The notes below the pieces were generated by a model. The model was not told the origin of the DNA. It saw nothing but the letters and a program-made list of their open reading frames with translations, and made no database searches. A DNA stretch of 64,000 nt from Naegleria gruberi (lineage: Eukaryota), in assembly GCA_000004985.1 (NCBI GenBank), contig GG738859.1; one strand, given 5' to 3'. Both the position numbers and the translations under genes were made by a program. Positions 15,847 through 28,973 of the stretch are shown here, one piece after another; positions within the stretch are counted from its first letter, which is position 1, and each line of letters starts with the position of its first letter.

Positions 15847-16473
15847 TTACATTTCATATTCAGCAGCTTCCAATGTAGACAACAATGGTTCTAGGAGTTC
15901 CAAACCAATTTCAGCTTGACCTCTAACAGCATTGTCTCTGCTCTTCAGCAATTCCTTTTGAGCTTCAACTTCACGTCTAACGAGATTGACATCCAATTCA
16001 TCAAGTTTGTATGCTTCAGACAAGTTCAATTGAACAAAACCGTGATAGTAAACAAAAGCGAAACCACCAGCACTGAACCATTTAACAGTCTTTTCATCGT
16101 TATATTTGATTTTGATAAGTCCAGGATTAATTCTCATAACTTGAGTTCTGTGGTTAGGGAAGATACCATAGTCACCGAATTCAACAGTGGAGAGAGAAAT
16201 GTCATCAACTTTATCACTTCTGATGATGTAACTGTTGTTTGTACAGAGAGTGAGGGTAAGTTTTTTAGTTTGGATGGCTTCAGTCAAATCATCAGGGAGT
16301 GATTTAACGAAACGATTTGGAATGTAAGAAAAGGCATCTTCAATTTCTTGTTTATCCTTCTTCTTTTCAGAGGCGAAACGCTTTACAACATTGTTGCAAG
16401 CAACAGCCAAAATTTTCTTTGATGATTGGTTGTTGTTAACTCTGAGGAGTGGCTTGGTGATGTTCTTGAGCAT
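15847..16473 (-). CDS. mitochondrial F1 ATP synthase delta subunit (bacterial epsilon homolog) with presequence, 208 aa
   Basis: ATG at 16471-16473. The ~40-aa basic N-terminus (MLKNITKPLLRVNNNQSSKKILAVACNNVVKRF) precedes a beta-sandwich region (LTLTLCTNNSYII...QVMRINPGLIKIKY...WFSAGGFAFV) and a C-terminal helical hairpin. This is the pattern of yeast ATP16 and bovine delta. Confidence 0.55.
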   Translation of the reverse strand: MLKNITKPLLRVNNNQSSKKILAVACNNVVKRFASEKKKDKQEIEDAFSYIPNRFVKSLPDDLTEAIQTKKLTLTLCTNNSYIIRSDKVDDISLSTVEFGDYGIFPNHRTQVMRINPGLIKIKYNDEKTVKWFSAGGFAFVYYHGFVQLNLSEAYKLDELDVNLVRREVEAQKELLKSRDNAVRGQAEIGLELLEPLLSTLEAAEYEM

Positions 16474-16711
16474 TTTTTTCGATTTTTTAGCGCACAGGTT
16501 AGTTTACAAAATGGACACAAAAATGAGGTTTTTTATTAATATTTTCTCTCATTCACCATCATCATGTAGAATATTATTACTTTAATTTAAATAATAATAT
16601 TATTACAAATAGATGTACATGATGAAACTCTTGGTAAAAGAAGCCTCGGGTGAGCAATCTTGTTCATTTATTATGATGGTAATCTTTTTCTTCATCGCAA
16701 AGCTGAAAAAA
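16474..16711. promoter_or_regulatory. 238-bp divergent intergenic region between ATP synthase delta and MYST HAT genes
   Basis: Both flanking ATGs sit in A-rich contexts. The short ORFs here are spurious. Confidence 0.3.
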
Positions 16712-18074
16712 ATGCCAAAGAACAAAAGGGCAGCTGCCAGTAGCAGTGGAAGTACTAGTAAACCAACCGATTCAGAGAATGGTCTTCAGCAAGGATCAAA
16801 AGTGTTATGTAAATCGCTGAGAGACAATGAATACCGTAAGTGATTGTACTAGTTGATTGTGATCATAACAACGTTGACGACGGAAATTTTTATTGTTGTA
16901 TGATGATTATGTGGTAGATATGGCCGAAATTATCGAAATTAATGAAAAGAATGCCCAATTCTATGTTCACTACATTAATTGTATGTAGATTTTTATTATA
17001 ACAGCATTCCGATCATGTCATTAAATAGTTGATAAAAGATTGGATGAATGGGTTACTATTGATCGATTCAATTTGGATGAGGATGAAAGTGTTACAAAGA
17101 GAGATGAAGATACTAGAGTGGAACGTAAATTAACGAGAAATATGAAAAGACAATATAATGAATTACATAATGTGTCAACTGAGATTGATGTAGATAATGA
17201 TCCTGTGCAAGCAGCATTGGAAAAGGAACATGAGGAATTTACCAAAGTTAAAAACATTCAAAAAATTCAATTCGGAAAATATGAAGTTGAAACATGGTAT
17301 TTCTCACCATATCCAGAAGAATACTCAATGATTGATAAATTATACATATGTGAATTTTCTTTGAAATACATGAAGAGCAGGAGAACATATGAAAGACACA
17401 GAGACAAATGTACTTTAAAACATCCACCTGGTGACGAAATATATAGAAGTGGATCTCTAAGCTTTTTTGAAGTTGACGGAAAAAAACAAAAGATTTATTG
17501 CCAAAATTTGTGCTTGTTGGCTAAATTATTTTTGGATCACAAAACTCTCTACTTTGATGTAGAACCTTTCCTTTTCTATGTACTTTGTGAATGTGACGAG
17601 GAAGGATGTCACATGGTAGGATACTTTTCAAAGGAAAAACAAAGTGCTGACGGTAATAATTTGGCTTGTATTCTGACCTTACCTCCTCATCAAAGAAAAG
17701 GTTATAGTAAGATTTTAATTGGATTTTCATATGAATTATCTAAAATTGAAGGAAAGGAAGGAACTCCAGAAAGACCATTATCCGATCTAGGTAAAATCAG
17801 TTATCGTAGTTACTGGAAGAATGTTCTTCTTGACATTTTACAGGCTCATTCAGGTATTTCAATTAAGGAAATTTGTAAAATGACAGCCATCAAACAAGAA
17901 GATGTATTGACAACTTTGCAATCACTCAATTTACTCAAGTATTGGAAAGGTCAACACATTATTTCTGTTGCCCCTAAGATTCTCGAAGAGCACATGAAAA
18001 AGCAAAAGAGAGATGAAGTTAAGATTGATCCATCTAAGATTCACTGGAGTCCATATCCACTTTCTCAACAATAA
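16712..18074 (+). CDS. MYST-family histone acetyltransferase (Esa1/Tip60-like: chromo barrel + MYST zinc finger + acetyl-CoA binding domain); 3 exons, ~410 aa
   Basis: Exons are 16712-16835, 16918-16980 and 17029-18074, with 82- and 48-nt introns (GTAAGT and GTATGT donors). The chromo barrel is [12 protein letters not shown].../[28 protein letters not shown]. The MYST core carries the motifs [24 protein letters not shown] (C2HC finger), [42 protein letters not shown], and the acetyl-CoA site [25 protein letters not shown]. Confidence 0.9.
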
Positions 18075-18156
18075 ATATTTAACAATTGAGATAACAATCA
18101 TTTTGGTTAATTTTTTTTCACTCACAGAAGAATAAATTAACAAGTTTATAATTATT

Positions 18157-18891
18157 TTACACCAGTTTCACCTTTCCTTCAAAGAGTAAAGTTCTTATCA
18201 TTCTGTATTGAATGAAAAATATTGTTCCCTTAGGTAGTTCAAGTTCCAATTCATCTTCATCTTCATTGTTTGGATCAGCATTGAAAGGAGTGAGTGTCAC
18301 AGTACCTAAATCTTGTACAACTTCACAGAATAAATATTTAAACCAATCTGGTTCAACAAAAGGTACAATGTTATCCTTTCCTTGACCTTTTGAAGCAACA
18401 TCCACATTGGTTTGATTGATGAAACTATTATCGAAATAGGTAGATCTTAATTTAGAGAATTTTTGGAGGAACTTCCACTCTGAAGGTGTAACAATTTTCA
18501 AAGCTGAATGAATTTCCTCATCCGTACTTGTTTCCCAAGATAAGTCACTATTATTGATATTTTTGATTTCTGTTCTCTTTACATATTCACACAATGTTTC
18601 CAACTTGAATAGTCTTGTCCTCATCAGAGATGTTACTAAAAATTTCAATCTATTTAATTCTGTATTTCTAATAGAATATTCTTCCGTATAGACATCACTT
18701 TCCATGAGTTTTTCTTCCTCCGATTCAATCCTTGACTTGGCTCTTTCGACCATAGATTCAAGACGTTTTCCTCCAGGTAAAAGTTCGGGAGAGTTTTTTT
18801 CATTGACAAGCCAAATCCTCATATCCTCGAATACTTCGGCATCATCGCCACTCTCCATCATCAATTCGGCAGAATCTATTAGGCTTTGCAT
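18157..18891 (-). CDS. SLD5: GINS complex subunit SLD5 (GINS4), 244 aa
   Basis: ATG at 18889-18891. It matches SLD5 in WLVNEKNSPELL (human WMNEKFAPELL), LKFLVTSLMRTRLFKLE, and the C-terminal IQYRMIRTLLFEGKVKLV (human IRYKTIAPLVASGAVQLI). Confidence 0.75.
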   Translation of the reverse strand: MQSLIDSAELMMESGDDAEVFEDMRIWLVNEKNSPELLPGGKRLESMVERAKSRIESEEEKLMESDVYTEEYSIRNTELNRLKFLVTSLMRTRLFKLETLCEYVKRTEIKNINNSDLSWETSTDEEIHSALKIVTPSEWKFLQKFSKLRSTYFDNSFINQTNVDVASKGQGKDNIVPFVEPDWFKYLFCEVVQDLGTVTLTPFNADPNNEDEDELELELPKGTIFFIQYRMIRTLLFEGKVKLV

Positions 18892-19144: not shown

Positions 19145-19263
19145 GGCTACGGCCATATCACGATGAATGCACCTCATCCCGTCCGATTTGAGAAGTTAAG
19201 CATCGTCGAGCCACATCAGTACTGAGGTTGGAGACAACTTGGGAACCTGTGGTGCTGTAGTCT
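19145..19263 (+). rRNA. 5S ribosomal RNA gene (single copy in window, dispersed)
   Basis: The gene reads GGCTACGGCCATATCACGATGAATGCACCTCATCCCGTCCGATTTGAGAAGTTAAGCATCGTCGAGCCACATCAGTACTGAGGTTGGAGACAACTTGGGAACCTGTGGTGCTGTAGTC. The 5' and 3' ends pair to form helix I. Conserved box A and box C-like internal elements are present (CCGATCTCGTCTGATCTCGGAAGCTAAGC-type; GGGAGACC...GGGAA). Confidence 0.85.
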
Positions 19264-19445: not shown

Positions 19446-20093
19446 TTAGACAACTTGTTGATAGGAAGCCTTTCTTCTTCTGAGTACAAAGAAAATCAAT
19501 CCAGCACAACATCCAACACAACACAAAACTCCAATAATACCTCCAACAGATGCAACAGCAATCACAATTGCTGCAGTATTATCTTGTTGAGGAATGATGG
19601 TCAAATCAATAAAAACTCTTGCTGTGGCACCTTCATAGGATGGATTTCTCTTGACGAGAACTCTAATCTTACCCAAGTCGGTTCTTGGTAGAGTGACTAT
19701 ATTACCCTTTGATGATAGGTAGCCACTGTTTGGGAAGTAAAAGTAGAACATGTATTCTGCAATGGAAGGTGGAACATAGGCAGGGTTGGCTTTAACTTTT
19801 TCAACAAAGTCATTATATTGAGGTTCTGTTAAAAAGTAAACAGAAGCTCCATAGCCAGAGCTTGAATAATTCATTTTGAATTGATTATAGTCTGGACCTA
19901 CTTGACATTCCAATGCAATGGCATACTCATTGCTCCATGAAAATTTATAGTCCTTATCCACTGGTGTGCAAGGAGTTGCAACTTGTTGTTGTTGGCTTGT
20001 TGCAACCACAGTAGCATGTGAATTGTTCAACAAAAAGAGAATGGCAACAATTGAGAATAAGACTAAAGTGCAAGAGTTGAGTGGAGTATTCAT
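19446..20093 (-). CDS. type I membrane glycoprotein, LAMP-like topology, paralog A (215 aa)
   Basis: ATG at 20091-20093. It has a signal peptide, a luminal domain with conserved Cys and N-glycosylation sites, one C-terminal TM (IVIAVASVGGIIGVLCCVGCCAGLIFFVL) and a short basic tail RRRKASYQQVV ending in a YxxPhi-like motif. Confidence 0.55.
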   Translation of the reverse strand: MNTPLNSCTLVLFSIVAILFLLNNSHATVVATSQQQQVATPCTPVDKDYKFSWSNEYAIALECQVGPDYNQFKMNYSSSGYGASVYFLTEPQYNDFVEKVKANPAYVPPSIAEYMFYFYFPNSGYLSSKGNIVTLPRTDLGKIRVLVKRNPSYEGATARVFIDLTIIPQQDNTAAIVIAVASVGGIIGVLCCVGCCAGLIFFVLRRRKASYQQVV

Positions 20094-20631
20094 CAATGCA
20101 GCTTGTTTTTTTTAAGTGTTCACTTTAACACTCCGTGTAAGCAAGGTTATGAATCTTATAGGAGGTTACCATTTGAACATCATGCTAAGAATGGATATTT
20201 AAGAGATTGAATACGCAACATAAGCGTACAATTGGATCATCGAAGTAAAAAAGTGCAAAGCAACATGGTTTGAAACAGTTTACAACAAATGTCAATTCAA
20301 CTTATTAATACGACATTTCATGTTTTGAGGGAGAGTACATGAGTACATAATATCCTGTAATTGTTAGATTATTCAAAGAGACTTGGCATCTTTTTACTTG
20401 CAAGTAAAAACTTTCAAATTCATTTCTATTTAGTTTTCAAAAATTGGTTAATAGAAACTTCCTTTTCGCTTTTGAGCTTTCCAAACTATTATTCGAATCT
20501 ATAATATGTTACCAAGGATTAGTGAAATCAAACCTTTCATTGAAACCCTTTACAACGGTATAGATATTTTAAAAATAAATTTCAAAGAAGAGACGCTGCC
20601 AGATGTGTTACAAAAAGATAATAACATTCAT

Positions 20632-21297
20632 TTAAACTTGTTGATAAGCATCTGATACCATGGGTGTTGTCATTTGTTCATTGCTCATAGCAACTTTTCT
20701 TCTTTTAACCACAAACACAATGAATGCAATGGCACATGCTCCACAACACAACACTCCAATCAATCCTCCAACAACCATAACAGCAATCACAATCGATTTG
20801 GAATTGTTTTTTTGTGGAGTGATTAGCATTTCAAGATAAACACTGGATACTGAGGTTGTTGGTAAGGTTGGATTTCGTTTTACAAGAACTCTGATGGTGC
20901 CATAACCTTCATCTCTTGGCTTGGGGATGACATCACCTTTGGAAATCTTGTAGGAAGTATCAGAGTAGTAGAAGGAATGCAAAAATTCTGGCGGAAGGTA
21001 TTGTGGATTGGATTTCACATTTTCAAGAAAGGAAGAATATTGAGAATCTAATAGAACAAACACGGAAGAACCATATCCATAGGTTGAGAATGTAATTTTG
21101 AGTTCATTGCATTCAGAAGATACTTGACATTCCATTGCAATCGAATAATTGTTAGCATGTGAAAATTTAAAGGTTTCTTCCATATAACATGGTGTTGCAC
21201 TTTGACAATGAACAGTGGAGGAACTGATTAACAATAATTGGAGAGCAATCATTAACGCGAAAACCACTAACAGTAACGAATTGTTTGAAGTGTTCAT
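20632..21297 (-). CDS. type I membrane glycoprotein, LAMP-like topology, paralog B (221 aa)
   Basis: ATG at 21295-21297. It is colinear with paralog A: ATPC...FKFS...Y.IA.ECQV, GTIRVLVKRNP versus GKIRVLVKRNP, TM IVIAVMVVGGLIGVLCCGACAIAFIVFVV, and a tail KRRKVAMSNEQMTTPMVSDAYQQV ending in YQQV. Confidence 0.55.
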   Translation of the reverse strand: MNTSNNSLLLVVFALMIALQLLLISSSTVHCQSATPCYMEETFKFSHANNYSIAMECQVSSECNELKITFSTYGYGSSVFVLLDSQYSSFLENVKSNPQYLPPEFLHSFYYSDTSYKISKGDVIPKPRDEGYGTIRVLVKRNPTLPTTSVSSVYLEMLITPQKNNSKSIVIAVMVVGGLIGVLCCGACAIAFIVFVVKRRKVAMSNEQMTTPMVSDAYQQV

Positions 21298-21486: not shown

Positions 21487-22818
21487 ATGAGAAAATTGCT
21501 TCTGGCCACTTCCGTGTTGGCTCTTGGTGCCGGAATGTCAATGGATCGTGGAATAAAATCCTTCATGCCATTTTCATCATCCTCATCATCAATGGATAAT
21601 AATAATACTTTGGAAGTTTCTAAAATGGTGATGGGAAGTAAAATGATTGTGGAAGCACAAAGTGCTGCTCCAATGACACCACCACCAACACCAGCACTTT
21701 CTCCTAGTAGTGGTAGTGCTACAACACCAGCATCATCGGAACAAAGTGGAGAATCAGCAGAAGGAGAAGGTTCTGGTGCTAGAAATCCTGGTAGAGTTTC
21801 ACCACAAGGATTACCTAGACAACAAGCTGGCGATAATCAATCAGCCACTCCAGCTGCAATTATGAGCAAATTGCCAGGTTATGTTAAGGCACATGCCAAG
21901 ACAAAGGAAAATCAACAATTATTCCAAACATTTTACGAGTTGGGAATACCAAGTGATAGAGAAATGCACATGTTTTCTGGATATATTTCAGCAACTGATA
22001 CTAGATTGAGAATTCCATCACTTGTTGCTTGGACCATTAAAGGACGTACTAGTGGAGGAAGTAAGGAAAGAAAATCCGATAGATCCAATTCTCAATTCCA
22101 TTCGAGTCCATACCTTCCAGAACCATTCAATGCTCAAAATTCTGACTATTCTGGAGAGGGATATGATAGAGGACACTTGTGTCCATGTGGAGATTTTTAT
22201 TATAGTATGGGACAAAAAGCTTTGGATGAAACATTCTACTTGTCACACAATGTAGTTCCACAAGATCCAAATAATAACAGATTTTATTGGCTTAGATTGG
22301 AAATGTTCACTAGAGGAATGGCCAAACAGTTCGATAATGTCCACGTATTGGCTGGTCCACTGTTTGTTCCAGAAGAGTCAGGAAAAAAAAAGTTTGTTCG
22401 TTATGAAGTCATTGGAGATAATAATGTTGCTGTTCCAACACACTTGTACAGAATTTTGGTTGGAGAGAAAAAGTCTGAAAACAAATTTTTCATTCAGGCC
22501 TTTATGATTCCAAATAAGCCAATTCCAAAATCAAAGCCAATTACCGATTTTATTGTTCCAGTTTCAGACATTGAAAAGCTCAGTGGTATGCAATTGTTAC
22601 ACAGAATTGAAAAGACAAGTACATTACCACTTTGTAAACATTTCCCATGCGAATTGAAAGCATGGCAAGAATTGGAAATGCAAAAGATTCTGTGGGATAA
22701 GAGTATGGATTCTAAGGAAAAGGTTGAAAATGAGTGGAATAAGCTCATCCAAGAAGGTTGGAAGCCAAGTCCACAAATTGTTCAACAATTCCAATCAAGA
22801 CTGTCTGATTTAAAGTAA
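21487..22818 (+). CDS. DNA/RNA non-specific endonuclease (EndoG/Nuc1-like) with N-terminal presequence and S/T-rich linker, 443 aa
   Basis: ATG at 21487 after an A8 run. The catalytic DRGH motif is in GYDRGHLCPCGDF, with NVVPQ and AGPLF motifs of the NUC/EndoG family. The N-terminus is MRKLLLATSVLALGAGMS. Confidence 0.8.
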   Translation: MRKLLLATSVLALGAGMSMDRGIKSFMPFSSSSSSMDNNNTLEVSKMVMGSKMIVEAQSAAPMTPPPTPALSPSSGSATTPASSEQSGESAEGEGSGARNPGRVSPQGLPRQQAGDNQSATPAAIMSKLPGYVKAHAKTKENQQLFQTFYELGIPSDREMHMFSGYISATDTRLRIPSLVAWTIKGRTSGGSKERKSDRSNSQFHSSPYLPEPFNAQNSDYSGEGYDRGHLCPCGDFYYSMGQKALDETFYLSHNVVPQDPNNNRFYWLRLEMFTRGMAKQFDNVHVLAGPLFVPEESGKKKFVRYEVIGDNNVAVPTHLYRILVGEKKSENKFFIQAFMIPNKPIPKSKPITDFIVPVSDIEKLSGMQLLHRIEKTSTLPLCKHFPCELKAWQELEMQKILWDKSMDSKEKVENEWNKLIQEGWKPSPQIVQQFQSRLSDLK

Positions 22819-22837: not shown

Positions 22838-24051
22838 TTATAAGTAAATTGTGCAAATCTTAATGTCCGATAGATGTGAATCAGTTCCCTGCACTACCTT
22901 ATCTAGAATGGATGTCATGAATAGAAAATGAATATTTTCATGGTTATTGTAATAGGCAAATGAAAAACTCTCACCACACATAATACTGGTTTTTCTTGGA
23001 AAGAGTATTTCTTTTGGTTTAGAAATTCTAACTGGTGTGGAGGTAGATGAAAATTCTTGAGTTCCAAGCTGATAATATGAGTTCTGCCCACCCACATAGA
23101 GAGAGCCTGATTCTCCAAGAAGCACGTAATGTCTCCAACCAGCTGAGAATGCTATCCATTTTCATTATAGAAAACTCAATTTAACTTTATAAACTTACAA
23201 ACAATTGGCTCATTAATATCAAGTTTTTTATAATAATTTCCAACATGTTTTCCAACTCCAAAAATTTCATTATTCTCCAATTGAACTATTGTACATAACC
23301 CTCCACAGGTAACATTACTAATTTTCTTTCCATGAAAAGGTATTGTAATTGGTTTAAAAAATTCGTTATTTCTTTCATTAGAAGAGGAGTATGAATTTGC
23401 ATCATTTAATCCACAACCATATAATTCAAATTCAGTAGCAATCACAGTGAATTGAGCACCCATTGCAATTTTTTCAACTTTGTTATAATCTTCAAATGAA
23501 ACAAGTGAAAGAGTTCCATACTTATCAATTCTAGTTCCATTTCCTAATTGTCCACAAGAATTCCATCCAGATCCATAAATCTTGCAGCCTATTTTCACAA
23601 AGAAATGTCCAGCACTAGCACTAGTATAAAACCCGTTAATCTCTTCATTCTCTTCTTTCTCAATTTTAACAAAACTATGTGATTTAGTTTCAAATCCACT
23701 CCAATAAATATTTCCACAATTTGTAATTACATAACTATTGATCTGAGAGCAGAAAGCATCCACAATCATCTCTCCCTTCTCAAGAAACGTTCCAACAGGA
23801 ATGATCTTTAGTGAGTCATCAGTTTTACTCGTACCAAACACTTGTCCGTTATGATTATTACCAATTCCGAATAATTGACCATCCTGCAACAATATCATAG
23901 TATGTTCCCTTCCACATGCAATCTTTTTAACTTTCGAAAGTGATGATTCATCATCATTGGGAAGGAGTGTAATTGGCGAGAAGGTTTTGCTTTTCGAAGA
24001 TTGACACGATTCACAAAATCTATTGGAGCCAGTGGAAAGAACATAGACCAT
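22838..24051 (-). CDS. RCC1-repeat (beta-propeller) protein; 2 exons, ~388 aa
   Basis: On the minus strand the exons are 23199-24051 and 22838-23151 with a 47-nt intron (GTAAGT donor). It has repeated G.N..GQLG blades (GIGNNHNGQVFG, GSGWNSCGQLGNG, VGGQNSYYQLGTQ). Confidence 0.7.
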
Positions 24052-24153: not shown

Positions 24154-25605
24154 ATGTTTCAAAATCTTCACGAGCAAGGGATAACAATTATTCTCGATGA
24201 TCAAATTGGATCGGAGAGGCTTTCTTTTAAATATAACCTCTCTCGATTCTATAATTTAGTAGTACATTTCACAGAGACAGCTCCAACACTGGCAACATTA
24301 TTGGAGGATGAACCCGAATTATTGCTAGAATCGATGAAGAGTTCTTCGACACCATTCATTCCCGATCAATATAAGAATGATTTAAATTTTCTGAGGAAGG
24401 CCTGTCGAATGAATTGTAGTTTGATAACAAATAATGATTTAATGCAAAATGATAAAGAGTGCTGCTTGATTACAGCATCTCAAAAAGGAGGTAAATTATT
24501 GCATTGTTGCAAAATCAAAGATCTAGATGTGATATTGCAAGCTTTCAAAGTTAATCCAAATGATATTTCATTCACATACGGATCAATGTTAATTAACACT
24601 CAAGAATATCAGGAATGGAAGAAACTGCAGGAACAGAAAAAAATTGCGCCAACCCACAAGACCAATCATAAAAAGGAAATTTTGGATGAAAAAGAAATAG
24701 TTCTCAATTCAGTTAATAAGAACGGAATGAACTTGAGAAAATTCCCATCATTTGCTTTGGATAGAGATGTTGTTCTAGCAGCCATAAAACAAAATGGTAC
24801 CATATTCCAAACAATTGATGAAAAGTGGAAAGAAGATTTGGAAATTGTGAGTACTGCAATAGATTCTGATCCCATGAATTTAAAATTCCTTCCAAATCAT
24901 TTCAAAAGTGACAGATCATTAGTGATGAAAGCAGTAACCAGCAATGGATTTGCTCTAAAATTTGCTGGTTCATCATTCCAAAGAGACAAGCAAATTGTTC
25001 TTTCCTCATTCACAAGTAATGGAAAAGCTGTAGAATTTGTACACAAGAGCCTGTGGTTAGATGAGGAAATTGTGAGATGTGCTTCTAGAAAAACTGGAAG
25101 ATGTCTATTTCATGCAAGTGAATGCATTAAATCCAATAAGGAACTAGCTCTCCAAATCATTCAAAAATTCCCAGAAGGATTCACCTACTTGAGTAATAGT
25201 TTGAAAACAGATAGGGACTTTATCTTATCAGCAATAGAGAAGAACCATTTAATTCTCTATCAAATCAGCCCCTTATTGAAACAAGATAACTCATTTCTAA
25301 TAGATGCCCTCAAACGAAACTCACTCATCTTTCCCAATTTACCTGAGAGTTTCCGATACGACCCCAATATGATCATTCTATCCTGCAAGAATTCTACTCA
25401 ACATCTGACATCTTTTCTGTATTACAAACAATCGCTCAGTCATAACTTTGACTTTGCATTACAATGTACTCAAATGAATGGTTCAGCTCTCAATTGCTTT
25501 AGTGATTTTTCACATAACGAGTTAAAATTACTTGCACTTGCTGCAGCTTCATCTTTCTTTCATCAGAAACACCCAAATTTTAAATTGCTTCTTCGTGATG
25601 ATTAG
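24154..25605 (+). CDS. DUF4116-repeat protein, 483 aa
   Basis: Single ORF with at least 7 tandem ~36-aa repeats (EKEIVLNSVNKNGMNLRKFP / DRDVVLAAIKQNGTIFQTI / DLEIVSTAIDSDPMNLKFL / DRSLVMKAVTSNGFALKFA / DKQIVLSSFTSNGKAVEFV ...). It belongs to the same family as the partial gene at 1-408. Confidence 0.65.
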   Translation: MFQNLHEQGITIILDDQIGSERLSFKYNLSRFYNLVVHFTETAPTLATLLEDEPELLLESMKSSSTPFIPDQYKNDLNFLRKACRMNCSLITNNDLMQNDKECCLITASQKGGKLLHCCKIKDLDVILQAFKVNPNDISFTYGSMLINTQEYQEWKKLQEQKKIAPTHKTNHKKEILDEKEIVLNSVNKNGMNLRKFPSFALDRDVVLAAIKQNGTIFQTIDEKWKEDLEIVSTAIDSDPMNLKFLPNHFKSDRSLVMKAVTSNGFALKFAGSSFQRDKQIVLSSFTSNGKAVEFVHKSLWLDEEIVRCASRKTGRCLFHASECIKSNKELALQIIQKFPEGFTYLSNSLKTDRDFILSAIEKNHLILYQISPLLKQDNSFLIDALKRNSLIFPNLPESFRYDPNMIILSCKNSTQHLTSFLYYKQSLSHNFDFALQCTQMNGSALNCFSDFSHNELKLLALAAASSFFHQKHPNFKLLLRDD

Positions 25606-25895: not shown

Positions 25896-28800
25896 ATGCA
25901 CAAACTAAGCAAGGTCTTCAACGTTTCTTGCAATCATATTGCTAAACAGCAAGCCATTCGTCAATCTTGCTATAAAAAAACAAATATTATTTCATTGTTG
26001 GAAAAGGAAGGACGAAAGCAAGGATTCCATTGCACTGTTTTTAATTCAAGACTTAGAAAATATAGTGAATCGGGTGAAACACCAACAATTGGTATTCGTA
26101 GAGAAGATAAAAATGTTTGGGAACGTAGAGTACCTCTCACACCATCCCAATGTGAAGAATTGATCAAGGAACATGGTATTCGTATTGTAATTCAACCATC
26201 AACAACTCGTGCTTTTGGTGATGAAGAATATAGAGAAGCTGGCTGTGAGATTAATGAAGATTTGAGTATTGCCCAAACAATCTTGGCAGTTAAAGAAGTT
26301 CCAGCCCAATTATTAATTCCGAACAAGACTTACATGTTCTTCTCTCACACAATTAAAGGACAATGGTATAACATGAATATGTTGGACACTATTTTAGAAA
26401 AGAAAATTAGATTGATCGATTATGAACGTATTGTGAAGGAAGTTGAAATTCCAGGAACTGAAAAAACAGTAGAAGAAAGATTGGTAAGATTTGGTCCTTT
26501 TGCTGGTAATGCTGGTGTTATTGATACACTTCATATTCTCGGAGAAAGATTATTGACTCAATATGGATATACAAGTCCTTTCCTCAGCATTTCATATGCT
26601 AGAAATTACATTAGTCTTGAAATTTGTAAACATGCCTTGAATGAAATTGGCAGAAAGATTAGTCAATATGGTATCAACAAGGATTTATTCCCAATGACCT
26701 TTGTTATGACTGGTAAAGGTGGTTCTGTTTGTCATGGTATGAAGGAAATGATTCAACAATTGCAACCTCCAGAATTAACACACAAAACAGTTGAATTTTT
26801 GAGAACACCACAAGAATTGAGAGCTTTGTGGGAAAAGAAAGCTAGAGGTGAAGTAACCAAGGAAGATTGTAGAAAGATTTATATTTTAATTTGTGGTCCT
26901 GAATATATGGTTAAACACAAGTCACAAACTCAACCATTTGACAAGTATGATTACTATGCTAATCCACAAGATTACGAACCAATTTTCCACGAAACAATTA
27001 TTCCATACACTAAAGTTTTGTTAAACGGCATGTATTGGGATGCCAGATATCCAAGATTAATCACTAACAAGCAAGCTAAACAATTAATTGATCAAAATAG
27101 ATTCCCACTCATTTGTGTTGGTGATGTTTCTTGTGATCCTGGTGGTTCTGTTGAATTCTTGACTAAGACTACTACAATTTCCTCTCCTGTCTATGTAAAT
27201 AATATCAAGGAAGACAAGATTCTTGACGATACTGTAATTGGTGAAGGTGTTGCAATGCTTGCTGTTGACCACTTGCCAGCTGAATTCCCAAGATCTTCCA
27301 GTAGTTTGTTTGGTTCTCACCTTTTCCCATTCATTCCAGATCTTGCTAGATCATTTGTTACTATGAGTTCTCCATTAGAAACTCAAATGAAATATTTGCC
27401 AACTGAGCTCAGAAAGGCTGTAATTACATCAGGTGGTAAATTGACACCAAACTTTGAATATATTGACAAGATTAGAGGTCCAAGATCTAGCAGAGTTTTG
27501 ATTTTGGGATCAGGATATGTTGTTCCTCCAATTATTGACTACTTGATCGATAATCCAAGAGATATTGCCACCGTTACCGTTGCCTCTGATAAGATTTCTT
27601 CTGAATTCAAGAGCAAGTATTCTGATTCTAAGAAATCTGTTGAATTTGTTAGTAATCTCAATGTTACTAATGATAGTCAATTGCTTGCTGATTTGATTAG
27701 CAAATGTGATATTGTACTTTCATTGGTTCCAGCTCCACTCCATCCAATTGTTGCTCAACAATGTTTAAAGTATGAAAAACATCTCGTCACTGCCAGTTAT
27801 ATTAGTCCAGAAATGGAACAATTGAACGAACAAGCTAAAGAAAAGGGTTTGCTCTTCATTAATGAAATTGGTTTGGATCCTGGTATTGATCACATGTGTA
27901 TTATGAAGACTCTCGATCAAGTTGTTGGTCAAAGAGGTGGTAAGGTTGAAAGCTTCAAGAGCTTCTGTGGTGCTCTCCCAGCCCCTGAATCATCTGATAA
28001 TCCTCTTGGTTACAAGTTCAGTTGGTCTCCAATTGGTGTTTTGAGAGCTTCTCAAAATCCATGTTTATTCATGAAGGATGGTGAAGTTGTCAATGTTACT
28101 GATGGTAACAAGCTCACTTTCCTCAATGAAAAGGTTGACGTCAAGTTTAAGGGATTCAATTTTGAAGTTATTCCAAACAGAGATTCCCTCAAGTACATTT
28201 CCAAGTACAAGTATCTGAATGAAAAGGACTTGAAGACCATGATGAGAGGAACCCTCAGATTTGGTGGTTTCTGTGAAGTTTTCAGATTACTCACTCTTTT
28301 AGGATACCTCAATCAAAGCACTGTCATTCCAGCTGATGCCAAGACTTATCGTGATATTTTCTGTACTCAATTGGGTGTTCCAGTTTCTACTGATTTGAAG
28401 ACCATTTCTGCCAAGGTCACCAGTCTTTACAATGAAAAGATTGATGCCATGTTCTCTAACATTACTGACAAGTACCAACAAGCTATTTACAATAGACTTA
28501 AGGCTAACGCTCAAACTGATGTTTCTTTCGCTCTCAAGAGTGTAAAACAACTTGGTTTGCTTTCTACTGATTCATTTGGTGAAAAACCAAAGAGTGGATT
28601 ACTCCTTGATTTGATCTGTACTCACCTTGAAAAGGAACTTGCCCTCTCTGCTGATGACAAGGATCTCAACTTTATGGTCCATGAATTTATTGTAAACTAT
28701 GAAAAGGAAAATGTTAAGGAAAAGATTACCTCAACTGTTTGTGTTTATGGTGACAAGAAGGAAGGAACTGCCACAAGTAGAACTGTTGGTTTACCTGTTG

Positions 28801-28973
28801 CTATCACTGCTGTACTTGTTGCTAAGGAATCAGCTGCCCTTAAAAAGTCAGTTGGTGGAGGTGGTGTCATTGGTCCAACTTCAACACCACTTTTATATGA
28901 AGGAGTTTTGAGTAAGCTTGAACAACAAGGAATTACTGTCGAAGAAACTGTTGAACCATACGAAGAAATGTAA
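25896..28973 (+). CDS. AASS: bifunctional lysine-ketoglutarate reductase / saccharopine dehydrogenase (alpha-aminoadipic semialdehyde synthase, AASS-type), ~1025 aa, N-terminal presequence
   Basis: ATG at 25896 after an A-run; the ORF-track start at 25764 is a TTG. The N-terminal half is the AlaDH/PNT-like LKR domain (GIRREDKNVWERRVPLTPSQCEEL, VFFSHTIKGQ). The C-terminal half is saccharopine dehydrogenase (VLILGSGYVVPPIIDYL Rossmann fold, EIGLDPGIDHM). The whole protein is one uninterrupted ORF. Confidence 0.9.
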   Translation: MHKLSKVFNVSCNHIAKQQAIRQSCYKKTNIISLLEKEGRKQGFHCTVFNSRLRKYSESGETPTIGIRREDKNVWERRVPLTPSQCEELIKEHGIRIVIQPSTTRAFGDEEYREAGCEINEDLSIAQTILAVKEVPAQLLIPNKTYMFFSHTIKGQWYNMNMLDTILEKKIRLIDYERIVKEVEIPGTEKTVEERLVRFGPFAGNAGVIDTLHILGERLLTQYGYTSPFLSISYARNYISLEICKHALNEIGRKISQYGINKDLFPMTFVMTGKGGSVCHGMKEMIQQLQPPELTHKTVEFLRTPQELRALWEKKARGEVTKEDCRKIYILICGPEYMVKHKSQTQPFDKYDYYANPQDYEPIFHETIIPYTKVLLNGMYWDARYPRLITNKQAKQLIDQNRFPLICVGDVSCDPGGSVEFLTKTTTISSPVYVNNIKEDKILDDTVIGEGVAMLAVDHLPAEFPRSSSSLFGSHLFPFIPDLARSFVTMSSPLETQMKYLPTELRKAVITSGGKLTPNFEYIDKIRGPRSSRVLILGSGYVVPPIIDYLIDNPRDIATVTVASDKISSEFKSKYSDSKKSVEFVSNLNVTNDSQLLADLISKCDIVLSLVPAPLHPIVAQQCLKYEKHLVTASYISPEMEQLNEQAKEKGLLFINEIGLDPGIDHMCIMKTLDQVVGQRGGKVESFKSFCGALPAPESSDNPLGYKFSWSPIGVLRASQNPCLFMKDGEVVNVTDGNKLTFLNEKVDVKFKGFNFEVIPNRDSLKYISKYKYLNEKDLKTMMRGTLRFGGFCEVFRLLTLLGYLNQSTVIPADAKTYRDIFCTQLGVPVSTDLKTISAKVTSLYNEKIDAMFSNITDKYQQAIYNRLKANAQTDVSFALKSVKQLGLLSTDSFGEKPKSGLLLDLICTHLEKELALSADDKDLNFMVHEFIVNYEKENVKEKITSTVCVYGDKKEGTATSRTVGLPVAITAVLVAKESAALKKSVGGGGVIGPTSTPLLYEGVLSKLEQQGITVEETVEPYEEM

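What the first reader, a model, noticed from the sequence alone, without database searches (positions are those of the whole stretch)
19446..21297. Tandem pair of LAMP-like type I membrane glycoprotein paralogs with C-terminal YQQV sorting-type motif
Two same-strand genes about 540 bp apart encode colinear proteins. Both have a signal peptide, a ~150-aa luminal domain with conserved Cys and NxS/T sites, an identical-style TM helix rich in Gly/Cys (VGGxIGVLCC) and a short basic cytoplasmic tail. Both tails end in YQQV, and paralog A has a final extra V. A membrane-proximal basic patch followed by a terminal YxxPhi is the classic lysosomal/endosomal targeting configuration of LAMPs. These may be lineage-specific lysosome or phagosome membrane glycoproteins that arose by local duplication. 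The luminal domain has no homolog I recognise.
Basis: partly seen in the sequence, partly recalled or inferred. Interest (0 to 1): 0.55.

Follow-up and report, generated by a model that had tools for sequence, protein, structure and literature searches.

The report
Naegleria membrane proteins with LAMP-style tails
Two neighbouring Naegleria gruberi genes belong to a tiny, uncharacterised amoeba-specific family of single-pass membrane proteins whose cytoplasmic tails all end in a tyrosine sorting signal like that of animal lysosomal proteins, although the proteins are not related to LAMPs.

Summary
Two intronless minus-strand genes lie 538 bp apart: A at 19446-20093 (XP_002679125) and B at 20632-21297 (XP_002679126). 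They encode colinear proteins of 215 and 221 aa that are 45% identical (E 1e-62). Each has an N-terminal signal-like segment, a luminal domain of about 140 aa, a hydrophobic segment of about 30 residues rich in Gly and Cys, and a basic tail ending in YQQV(V).

An exhaustive phmmer search of 1.84 billion representatives found only five clusters. These are A, B, a third N. gruberi paralogue, and two unnamed environmental proteins. All five end in YxxPhi (YQQVV, YQQV, YQTVL, YQSI, YVHI). Their tails differ in length (10-24 aa) and are otherwise unalignable. The chance rate is about 2% per protein, which argues for a selected adaptor-binding signal.

The LAMP label fails for the rest of the protein:
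- There is no Pfam hit.
- Each ectodomain carries only 0-2 N-glycosylation sequons, and none is conserved.

[quoted passage not shown] Localisation is untested. Interest is modest.

The parts
19446..20093 (-). Gene A: single-exon CDS including the stop codon. It encodes 215 aa and equals XP_002679125 / NAEGRDRAFT_65764.
   Evidence: The ORF is listed, which gives a TTG start one codon upstream. The ATG at 20093 gives a protein 100% identical to the NCBI entry.
20013..20093 (-). A residues 1-27: signal-peptide-like segment. The hydrophobic core is LVLFSIVAILFLL and the likely cleavage site is SHA|T.
   Evidence: The hydropathy maximum is 2.25. The -3/-1 small-residue rule was applied by reading. 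No dedicated signal-peptide predictor was available.
19575..20012 (-). A residues 28-173: luminal or extracellular domain. It is an eight-stranded jelly-roll beta-sandwich with one inserted helix (residues 90-102) and invariant Cys42 and Cys63.
19482..19574 (-). A residues 174-204: transmembrane helix AAIVIAVASVGGIIGVLCCVGCCAGLIFFVL. It is rich in Gly, Cys and small residues, and G185 is invariant in the family.
   Evidence: Hydropathy reaches 2.83. The model shows a helix over residues 172-210.
19449..19481 (-). A residues 205-215: cytosolic tail RRRKASYQQVV. The YQQV codons lie at 19452-19463.
20632..21297 (-). Gene B: single-exon CDS including the stop codon. It encodes 221 aa and equals XP_002679126 / NAEGRDRAFT_47897.
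20797..21204 (-). B residues 32-167: luminal jelly-roll domain, homologous to that of A. Residues 1-31 (21205-21297) form the signal-like segment.
   Evidence: The BLASTP alignment is, hydropathy, and the family alignment.
20707..20796 (-). B residues 168-197: transmembrane helix SIVIAVMVVGGLIGVLCCGACAIAFIVFVV.
   Evidence: Hydropathy reaches 2.93.
20635..20706 (-). B residues 198-221: cytosolic tail KRRKVAMSNEQMTTPMVSDAYQQV. The YQQV codons lie at 20635-20646. Relative to A, about 13 residues are inserted between the basic cluster and the Tyr, yet the terminal motif is kept.

Best explanation
A and B are old tandem duplicates within a very small Naegleria/heterolobosean-restricted family of single-pass type I membrane proteins.

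Proposed architecture and pathway:
- A cleavable signal peptide directs the protein into the ER.
- A jelly-roll beta-sandwich of about 140 aa faces the lumen or the outside. It carries one conserved Cys pair that is probably a disulfide.
- The domain sits directly on a long TM helix of about 30 residues rich in small residues and Cys.
- The cytosolic tail starts with a basic cluster and ends in YxxPhi.

Proposed mechanism (inferred):
- The terminal YxxPhi is read by the mu subunits of clathrin-adaptor (AP) complexes. The proteins are therefore endocytosed and/or sorted from the TGN or endosomes into the endolysosomal or phagosomal system.
- Members with short tails (A, P0004, P0005; Tyr 6-7 residues from the start of the basic cluster) are the best candidates for lysosome or phagosome residents.
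- Members with long tails (B, P0003) may follow a different itinerary.
- The luminal domain more likely acts as a binding module than as a glycan shield.

The resemblance to LAMPs is confined to the tail and is convergent.

What is shown: gene structure, paralogy, hydropathy architecture, motif conservation, predicted fold, and absence of known domains. What is inferred: signal-peptide cleavage, the disulfide, AP binding, and the destination compartment.
For: - Paralogy: 45% identity, E 1e-62.
- Purifying selection on both copies: NG86 dN 0.42, dS 0.95, dN/dS 0.44.
- Near-identical alleles of both genes (1-2 aa changes; P0002 and P0008) are recorded from ENA/Logan, each with a longest contig of 2565 bp.
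- Architecture is supported by hydropathy and by the AF2 models.
- An exhaustive phmmer search of 1.84 billion representatives gave only five clusters.
- All five clusters end in Y-x-x-[VI] with 0-1 trailing residue, while tail length varies from 10 to 24 aa and the rest of the tail does not align. Y211 is one of only 11 invariant columns.
- The chance rate of such an ending is about 2% per protein.
- The basic cluster sits on the C-terminal side of the TM segment and no hydrophobic C-terminus follows it, so the tail is cytosolic and a GPI signal is excluded.
- N. gruberi has adaptor complexes: an AP-5 mu homologue (PMC3191125), a beta1/2 adaptin (PMC4022609) and TSET (PMC4031984). From my own knowledge of the genome paper (not read here), AP-1 to AP-4 are also present.
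- Hydrophobic spans of 26-31 residues are typical of post-Golgi membrane proteins. This rests on established knowledge (Sharpe, Stevens and Munro 2010) and was not tested here.
Against: - There are no localisation, expression or binding data for any member. No paper mentions the locus tags.
- Only five sequences support the conservation argument, and they share ancestry, so they are not independent.
- Spacing of the motif from the membrane is not conserved (6, 20, 15, 7 and 6 residues). This argues against a single strict lysosomal code.
- A C-terminal hydrophobic residue could serve other readers, such as ER export or PDZ-type binding.
- The n-regions of the A and B signal peptides carry no positive charge. 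No dedicated signal-peptide, TM or GPI predictor could be run.
- The AF2 models have only moderate confidence (mean pLDDT 70-73), and the fold matches are generic.
Confidence: 0.6

Rival explanations
1. The proteins are cell-surface receptors or adhesins, for example a lectin-like prey or substrate-binding module. They reside at the plasma membrane, and the YxxPhi serves only AP-2-mediated internalisation and turnover, not lysosomal residence.
For: - The hydrophobic span is long.
- The tails of B and P0003 place the Tyr 15-20 residues from the membrane, outside the LAMP-type spacing.
Against: - Three of the five members have the 6-7-residue spacing, and P0005 has Gly-Tyr. From my own knowledge, these features favour lysosomal delivery in animal cells.
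- No ligand-binding residues could be identified.
- All fold matches are generic, with 4-16% identity.
Confidence: 0.2
2. The proteins are luminal cargo receptors that cycle between the Golgi/TGN and endosomes. They would be functional analogues of p24/GOLD proteins, Vps10/sortilin or plant VSRs. The jelly-roll domain would bind soluble cargo such as hydrolases, and the tail would drive cycling.
For: - The overall size and layout resemble p24 proteins.
Against: - There is no sequence relationship to p24. Pfam EMP24_GP25L is not hit by any of the five members.
- hhalign against human TMED2 gives a probability of 0.2%.
- There is no coiled-coil stalk between the sandwich and the TM helix.
- There is no FF or KKxx tail motif.
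- Viral capsids, Ena pilins and CBMs score as well as GOLD domains, so the fold match is not specific.
Confidence: 0.12
3. The conserved C-terminus is not an AP signal. It could instead be a C-terminal-hydrophobic ER-export signal, a PDZ-type ligand, or a Tyr phosphorylation site used for signalling.
For: - All members end in V, I or L within the last one or two residues.
- From my own knowledge, a C-terminal Val acts as an ER-export signal in several animal type I proteins.
Against: - The invariant residue is the Tyr at -4 or -5, which these alternatives do not require.
- Four of the five members have Gln at Y+1, as I recall for LAMP-1 (YQTI) and TGN38 (YQRL).
- Classical PDZ class I and II consensus sequences are not met.
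Confidence: 0.06
4. The proteins are true LAMP-family homologues, or alternatively GPI-anchored surface proteins.
For: Only the tail resembles LAMPs, in length (A has 11 residues) and in the terminal YxxPhi.
Against: - There is no Lamp Pfam domain.
- There are only 0-2 non-conserved sequons per ectodomain.
- For the GPI alternative, the hydrophobic segment is followed by a basic cluster and 10-24 further residues.
Confidence: 0.02

Closest known systems
LAMP-1 / LAMP-2 (animal lysosome-associated membrane glycoproteins, Pfam PF01299)
   Same: Both are type I proteins with a single TM helix. Both have a very short basic cytosolic tail ending in YxxPhi at the extreme C-terminus. A has RRRKASYQQVV and P0005 has RKRRSGYVHI; by my recollection LAMP-1 has RKRSHAGYQTI. 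The Tyr lies 6-7 residues after the start of the basic cluster in three of the five members.
   Different: The luminal part is a single jelly roll of about 140 aa, not one or two LAMP domains. No Pfam hit was found and no LAMP structure is among the top fold matches. There are 0-2 non-conserved sequons, against roughly 16-20 N-glycans in LAMPs by my recollection. There is no mucin-like hinge. The similarity is therefore analogy in the tail only.
p24 / TMED proteins (EMP24_GP25L, GOLD domain) and GOLD-domain 7TM proteins (GPR180, TMEM87 and related)
   Different: No sequence similarity is detectable. There is no coiled-coil stalk. The tail carries YxxPhi rather than FF or KKxx COPI/COPII motifs. 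There is one TM helix, not seven. The fold match is no better than to capsids, CBMs, CUB or C1q domains.
Other lineage-specific YxxPhi-sorted endolysosomal type I proteins (for example endolyn/CD164, lysosomal acid phosphatase, TGN38)
   Same: They share the same design principle: an unrelated luminal domain, one TM helix, and a short tail with a tyrosine-based signal. The SDAYQQV of B resembles the SDYQRL of TGN38. This comparison is from my own knowledge and was not tested here.
   Different: There is no homology. The luminal domains are unrelated.
Trypanosoma brucei p67 (PMC8053727)
   Same: It is a lineage-specific type I glycoprotein of the terminal lysosome in another protist, as stated in the abstract seen.
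   Different: There is no homology. From my own knowledge, not tested here, p67 is a large processed glycoprotein that uses dileucine-type signals.

Membership tests
LAMP family (Pfam Lamp, PF01299) | A luminal LAMP domain detectable by sequence profile. | tested here: not met
   hmmscan against Pfam-A found no Lamp hit. A and B were scanned at E up to 1 and all five members at E up to 10.
LAMP family (Pfam Lamp, PF01299) | The LAMP-domain beta-prism fold. | tested here: not met
LAMP family (Pfam Lamp, PF01299) | A heavily N-glycosylated luminal region. | tested here: not met
   Each ectodomain has 0-2 NxS/T sequons, and none lies in a column shared by A and B. Actual glycosylation cannot be tested here.
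LAMP family (Pfam Lamp, PF01299) | A single TM helix plus a cytosolic tail of about 11 aa ending in (G)YxxPhi. | tested here: met
   A has an 11-aa tail (RRRKASYQQVV), P0004 has 11 aa (..PYQSI) and P0005 has 10 aa (..GYVHI). B (24 aa) and P0003 (20 aa) have longer tails.
Tyrosine-signal (YxxPhi) sorted type I membrane proteins (a functional class, not a homology family) | Type I topology: an N-terminal signal sequence, one TM helix and a cytosolic C-terminal tail. | tested here: met
   Hydropathy peaks lie at residues ~3-25 and 174-204 / 168-197. A basic cluster follows the second segment. The models show helices at these positions. Dedicated predictors were not available.
Tyrosine-signal (YxxPhi) sorted type I membrane proteins (a functional class, not a homology family) | A YxxPhi motif in the cytosolic tail that is conserved among relatives. 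| tested here: met
   Five of five family clusters have it. Tyr is invariant while the rest of the tail diverges. The chance rate is about 2%.
Tyrosine-signal (YxxPhi) sorted type I membrane proteins (a functional class, not a homology family) | Tyr-dependent binding to an AP mu subunit, and Tyr-dependent endocytosis or lysosomal delivery. | not testable with these tools
   This needs binding assays or localisation of wild-type and Y-to-A mutants. Only the presence of adaptor components in N. gruberi is documented.
p24 / TMED (Pfam EMP24_GP25L) | Sequence-detectable GOLD/EMP24 domain. | tested here: not met
   No Pfam hit was found. hhalign of the family profile against human TMED2 gave a probability of 0.2%. 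The TMED2 sequence was checked as a genuine p24 by its Pfam hit.
p24 / TMED (Pfam EMP24_GP25L) | GOLD-type beta-sandwich fold. | tested here: inconclusive
p24 / TMED (Pfam EMP24_GP25L) | A coiled-coil stalk between the GOLD domain and the TM helix, and a tail with FF and/or KKxx-type motifs. | tested here: not met
   The last beta strand ends at residue 168 and the TM helix starts at residue 172. The tails lack FF and KKxx motifs.
GPI-anchored surface proteins | A C-terminal hydrophobic signal with no hydrophilic cytosolic extension. | tested here: not met
   In all five members the hydrophobic segment is followed by a basic cluster and 10-24 residues in total.

The most novel reading that the evidence does not exclude
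Heterolobosean amoebae, which have no LAMP homologue detectable here, evolved their own small family of endolysosomal or phagosomal membrane proteins. In this family a jelly-roll luminal module is coupled to a convergently evolved LAMP/CD63-type tail: a basic cluster followed by a C-terminal (G/S/P)YxxPhi about 6-7 residues further on. The tandem pair A and B would represent a split into a short-tail lysosome-directed form and a long-tail form with a different itinerary. If this holds, these would be the first candidate resident membrane markers of the Naegleria lysosome or phagosome. It would also be evidence that spacing-dependent tyrosine sorting operates in Discoba.
Probability: 0.3. Interest if true: 0.45.

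Novelty: new variant of a known kind. Interest (0 to 1): 0.3.

Why it matters
Naegleria is a deep-branching eukaryote and the genus includes the brain-eating N. fowleri. Its phagocytic and lysosomal system is implicated in pathogenicity (PMC8296547). I am not aware of any defined resident membrane marker for these compartments, although I did not search for this specifically.

A lineage-specific family that carries a conserved LAMP-style tyrosine signal would offer three things:
- candidate organelle markers;
- a test of whether YxxPhi/AP sorting rules, including the effect of spacing from the membrane, apply outside animals, fungi and plants;
- an example of convergent tail evolution on an unrelated luminal scaffold.

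If the proteins turn out to be ordinary endocytosed surface proteins, the finding is routine annotation of an orphan family.

Tried and rejected
1. Pfam scans of A and B, and of all five members, gave only sub-threshold hits to the TM region, such as Podoplanin at E 0.1.
2. A PDB sequence-profile search gave only TM-segment matches, namely sodium channel beta subunits, HLA and syndecan.
3. Word-indexed homologue searches returned one protein with A alone and three with the family profile. They missed the B and P0005 clusters, which are in the collection. That tool is therefore insensitive here, and I did not spend the third search.
4. Metagenome scans found no further relative. The alignment of all five was too divergent to search with. 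The A+B alignment produced 172 pattern matches, none confirmed by tblastn. A degenerate GYG...Q[YF] DNA pattern gave one hit that contains a stop codon, so it is a chance match.
5. The afdb50 structure library was unavailable, so remote structural relatives in other protists could not be sought.
6. tblastn of all five members against the window found no third copy or pseudogene.
7. The p24/GOLD homology hypothesis was rejected by hhalign.
8. The GPI-anchor hypothesis was rejected on tail anatomy.
9. The LAMP homology hypothesis was rejected.
10. A literature search for the locus tags and accessions returned no papers. A search for Naegleria with tyrosine-based sorting returned nothing relevant.
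11. dN/dS is only roughly informative because dS is close to 1, which is near saturation.
12. Gene neighbours (SLD5, MYST acetyltransferase, an NS-type endonuclease, an RCC1 protein, a DUF4116 protein, 5S rRNA) give no functional hint.
Full report
**Source and gene models**

The window is Naegleria gruberi nuclear DNA. The protein encoded at 19449-20093 (minus strand) is 100% identical to an NCBI 'predicted protein [Naegleria gruberi]' on a 530-kb scaffold. It carries the accessions XP_002679125 / NAEGRDRAFT_65764. The protein at 20635-21297 (minus strand) is identical to XP_002679126 / NAEGRDRAFT_47897. Both genes are uninterrupted ORFs. For A the ORF lister starts at a TTG one codon upstream, but the annotated protein starts at the ATG at 20093. 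The stop of B (20632-20634) and the ATG of A are 538 bp apart.

**Checking the observation**

A (215 aa) and B (221 aa) align end to end with 45% identity and 67% positives, E 1e-62. The main features are:
- **N-terminus.** Kyte-Doolittle windows of 19 residues exceed 2.2 at residues ~3-25 of both proteins. This is signal-peptide-like, and small residues sit at plausible -3/-1 positions: SHA|T in A and VHC|Q in B.
- **TM segment.** Hydropathy exceeds 2.2 again at A174-204 and B168-197, reaching 2.8-2.9.
- **Shared motif.** The second segment contains VGG(I/L)IGVLCC in both.
- **Tails.** A basic cluster follows the TM segment. The tails are RRRKASYQQVV (A, 11 aa) and KRRKVAMSNEQMTTPMVSDAYQQV (B, 24 aa).

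So the coordinates, the paralogy, the hydrophobic architecture and the YQQV(V) endings are all as described.

One detail fails. N-glycosylation sequons are few. A has N75, plus N23 inside the signal region. B has N50 and N164, plus two sequons in the first five residues. None falls in an alignment column shared by A and B. 'Glycoprotein' and 'conserved NxS/T' are therefore not supported. Two cysteines (A C42 and C63) are invariant in the family. The extra Cys63 of B is Tyr in a 99%-identical allele, so it is not structural.

**How large is the family?**

An exhaustive phmmer search with B against 1.84 billion representatives (50% clusters of about 15 billion proteins) returned only five proteins at E up to 1e-3:

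| Protein | Identity | Source |
|---|---|---|
| P0002 | 99% allele of B | ENA, Logan |
| P0001 | = A | N. gruberi |
| P0003 | third paralogue, NAEGRDRAFT_65118 | N. gruberi, another scaffold |
| P0004 | unnamed, 196 aa | metagenome assemblies (ENA, JGI, Logan; contigs of 1.1-1.7 kb, about 38-40% GC) |
| P0005 | unnamed, 195 aa | ENA |

Other searches added nothing:
- Word-indexed searches found no further members.
- Two metagenome scans found nothing.
- No further copy lies in the window.
- No paper mentions the locus tags.

An allele of A (one substitution, V189I) and an allele of B (two substitutions) are recorded from ENA/Logan, each with a longest contig of 2565 bp. This may be a single contig carrying both genes, but that was not verified.

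The duplication is old. By the Nei-Gojobori method dS is 0.95 (near saturation), dN is 0.42, and dN/dS is 0.44 overall and 0.39 in the luminal domain. This is consistent with both copies being under purifying selection.

**The key result: the tails**

| Member | Tail | Residues from start of basic cluster to Tyr | Residues after Phi |
|---|---|---|---|
| A | RRRKASYQQVV | 6 | 1 |
| B | KRRKVAMSNEQMTTPMVSDAYQQV | 20 | 0 |
| P0003 | KKKILQRWLKRGGEEYQTVL | 15 | 1 |
| P0004 | KRRKNKPYQSI | 7 | 0 |
| P0005 | RKRRSGYVHI | 6 | 0 |

In the five-way alignment (mean column identity 48%) only 11 columns are invariant, and the tail Tyr is one of them. The sequence between the basic cluster and the Tyr varies from 6 to 20 residues and does not align.

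From the window's own amino-acid composition, the chance that a protein ends in YxxPhi with 0-1 trailing residue is about 2%. Only 3 of 56 window ORFs of at least 100 aa do so, and two of those are A and B. The third is a 1025-aa ORF with no evident membrane character.

The five proteins share ancestry and are not independent. Even so, the motif is retained at the very C-terminus through an insertion of about 13 residues in B and through wholesale divergence of the rest of the tail. This is good evidence that the motif itself is under selection.

Four of the five members have Gln at Y+1. From my own knowledge, the known signals of LAMP-1 (GYQTI), TGN38 (SDYQRL) and CD63 (GYEVM) look very similar. 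Spacing of 6-9 residues from the membrane favours lysosomal delivery in animal cells, and three members (A, P0004, P0005) fit that range.

**Topology**

The basic cluster lies on the C-terminal side of the long hydrophobic segment, and a further 6-20 hydrophilic residues follow it. The segment is therefore a membrane span with a cytosolic tail, not a GPI-attachment signal. Even if the N-terminal segment were not cleaved, the tail would still be cytosolic and the domain luminal. The caveat is that only hydropathy and AF2 helices were available, not dedicated predictors.

**The luminal domain**

- **Sequence.** No Pfam family matches any of the five members, even at E up to 10. Only weak matches to the TM region appear. 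A PDB sequence-profile search likewise matches only TM segments.
- **Model.** AlphaFold2 gave mean pLDDT 70 from the single sequence and 73 from the five-sequence alignment, with 77-89 over residues 41-170. The model is an eight-stranded beta-sandwich with one inserted helix at residues 90-102. That helix covers the most conserved stretch, LLTExQYxDF. The last strand ends at residue 168 and runs almost directly into the TM helix.
- **Foldseek.** No PDB match reached E 1e-3.

**What it most likely is and does**

The shown facts are a signal-like N-terminus, a jelly-roll ectodomain with a conserved Cys pair, a long TM segment rich in small residues and Cys, and a tail with a selected C-terminal YxxPhi. 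These define a type I membrane protein built to be recognised by the mu subunits of AP adaptor complexes.

N. gruberi has such machinery:
- an AP-5 mu homologue (PMC3191125);
- a beta1/2 adaptin (PMC4022609);
- TSET (PMC4031984);
- AP-1 to AP-4, according to the genome paper, which I cite from memory and did not read here.

I therefore commit to the following. These proteins traffic through the endocytic system by tyrosine-signal/AP sorting. The short-tail members (including A) are the best candidates for lysosome or phagosome residents. B is a diverged paralogue whose longer tail may alter adaptor preference or itinerary.

The hydrophobic spans of 26-31 residues fit a post-Golgi destination. 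This is an inference from the published correlation between TMD length and compartment.

Because sequons are sparse, a LAMP-like glycan-shield role is unlikely. A binding function for the jelly roll, whether lectin, cargo or ligand binding, is more plausible but remains unsupported by any specific residue evidence.

**Rival explanations**

- An endocytosed plasma-membrane receptor or adhesin.
- A Golgi-endosome cargo receptor analogous to GOLD proteins.
- A non-AP reader of the C-terminus.
- True LAMP homology or a GPI anchor. Both are effectively excluded.

**Comparison with known systems, and novelty**

The tail works like those of LAMP-1, CD63, endolyn and TGN38. Membership of the LAMP family fails on domain, fold and glycosylation. 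Membership of the p24 family fails on sequence, stalk and tail motifs.

The family consists of unnamed 'predicted proteins', has no Pfam model and no literature that I could find. It is best described as a new, lineage-restricted variant of a well-known design: a YxxPhi-sorted type I membrane protein.

Interest is modest. The finding gives candidate endolysosomal markers for Naegleria and a case of convergent tail evolution. Nothing about the mechanism would surprise a membrane-traffic specialist, and no functional data exist.

Noticed in passing
window 19145-19263 (+): A complete 5S rRNA gene (Rfam RF00001, 105 bits, E 4e-22) lies 183 bp beyond the stop codon of gene A, on the opposite strand, followed by a T-run. 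It is the only Rfam hit in the 64-kb window, so it is a solitary 5S copy embedded among protein-coding genes.
   Followed up: partly
window 21487-22818 (+): This gene is transcribed divergently from gene B, with only 189 bp between the two ATGs. It encodes a 443-aa DNA/RNA non-specific endonuclease (Pfam Endonuclease_NS, E 4e-47). By reading, it has a hydrophobic N-terminus and a Ser/Pro/Thr-rich linker, so it may be a secreted or organellar nuclease.
   Followed up: partly
window 21109-21111 (codon 63 of gene B): The reference allele of B has Cys63. A 99%-identical allele from another assembly (P0002) has Tyr at this position, as does paralogue A. A second difference is T147A. This Cys is therefore polymorphic and is not part of the conserved Cys pair.
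   Followed up: yes
window 24154-25605 (+): A 483-aa ORF carries five DUF4116 repeats (E 1.6e-63), a domain of unknown function.
   Followed up: no
window 15847-18891 and 23176-24051: The neighbouring genes are unrelated housekeeping genes. They are an ATP synthase delta/epsilon-like ORF, a MYST-family histone acetyltransferase (17040-18074 +), the GINS subunit SLD5 (18157-18891 -) and an RCC1-repeat protein (23176-24051 -). They give no functional context for the pair.
   Followed up: partly
window 25896-28973 (+): This is the only other window ORF of at least 100 aa that ends in YxxPhi (…VEPYEEM). It is a 1025-aa ORF with no evident membrane character by reading, and I take it as the chance background for the motif. 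It was not scanned against Pfam.
   Followed up: no
tool behaviour (versus 17, 19, 50): The word-indexed protein search did not return the cluster of B or P0005, even when both were rows of the query alignment and both are present in the collection. The absence of N. fowleri or other Naegleria orthologues from that tool's output should not be read as true absence.
   Followed up: partly
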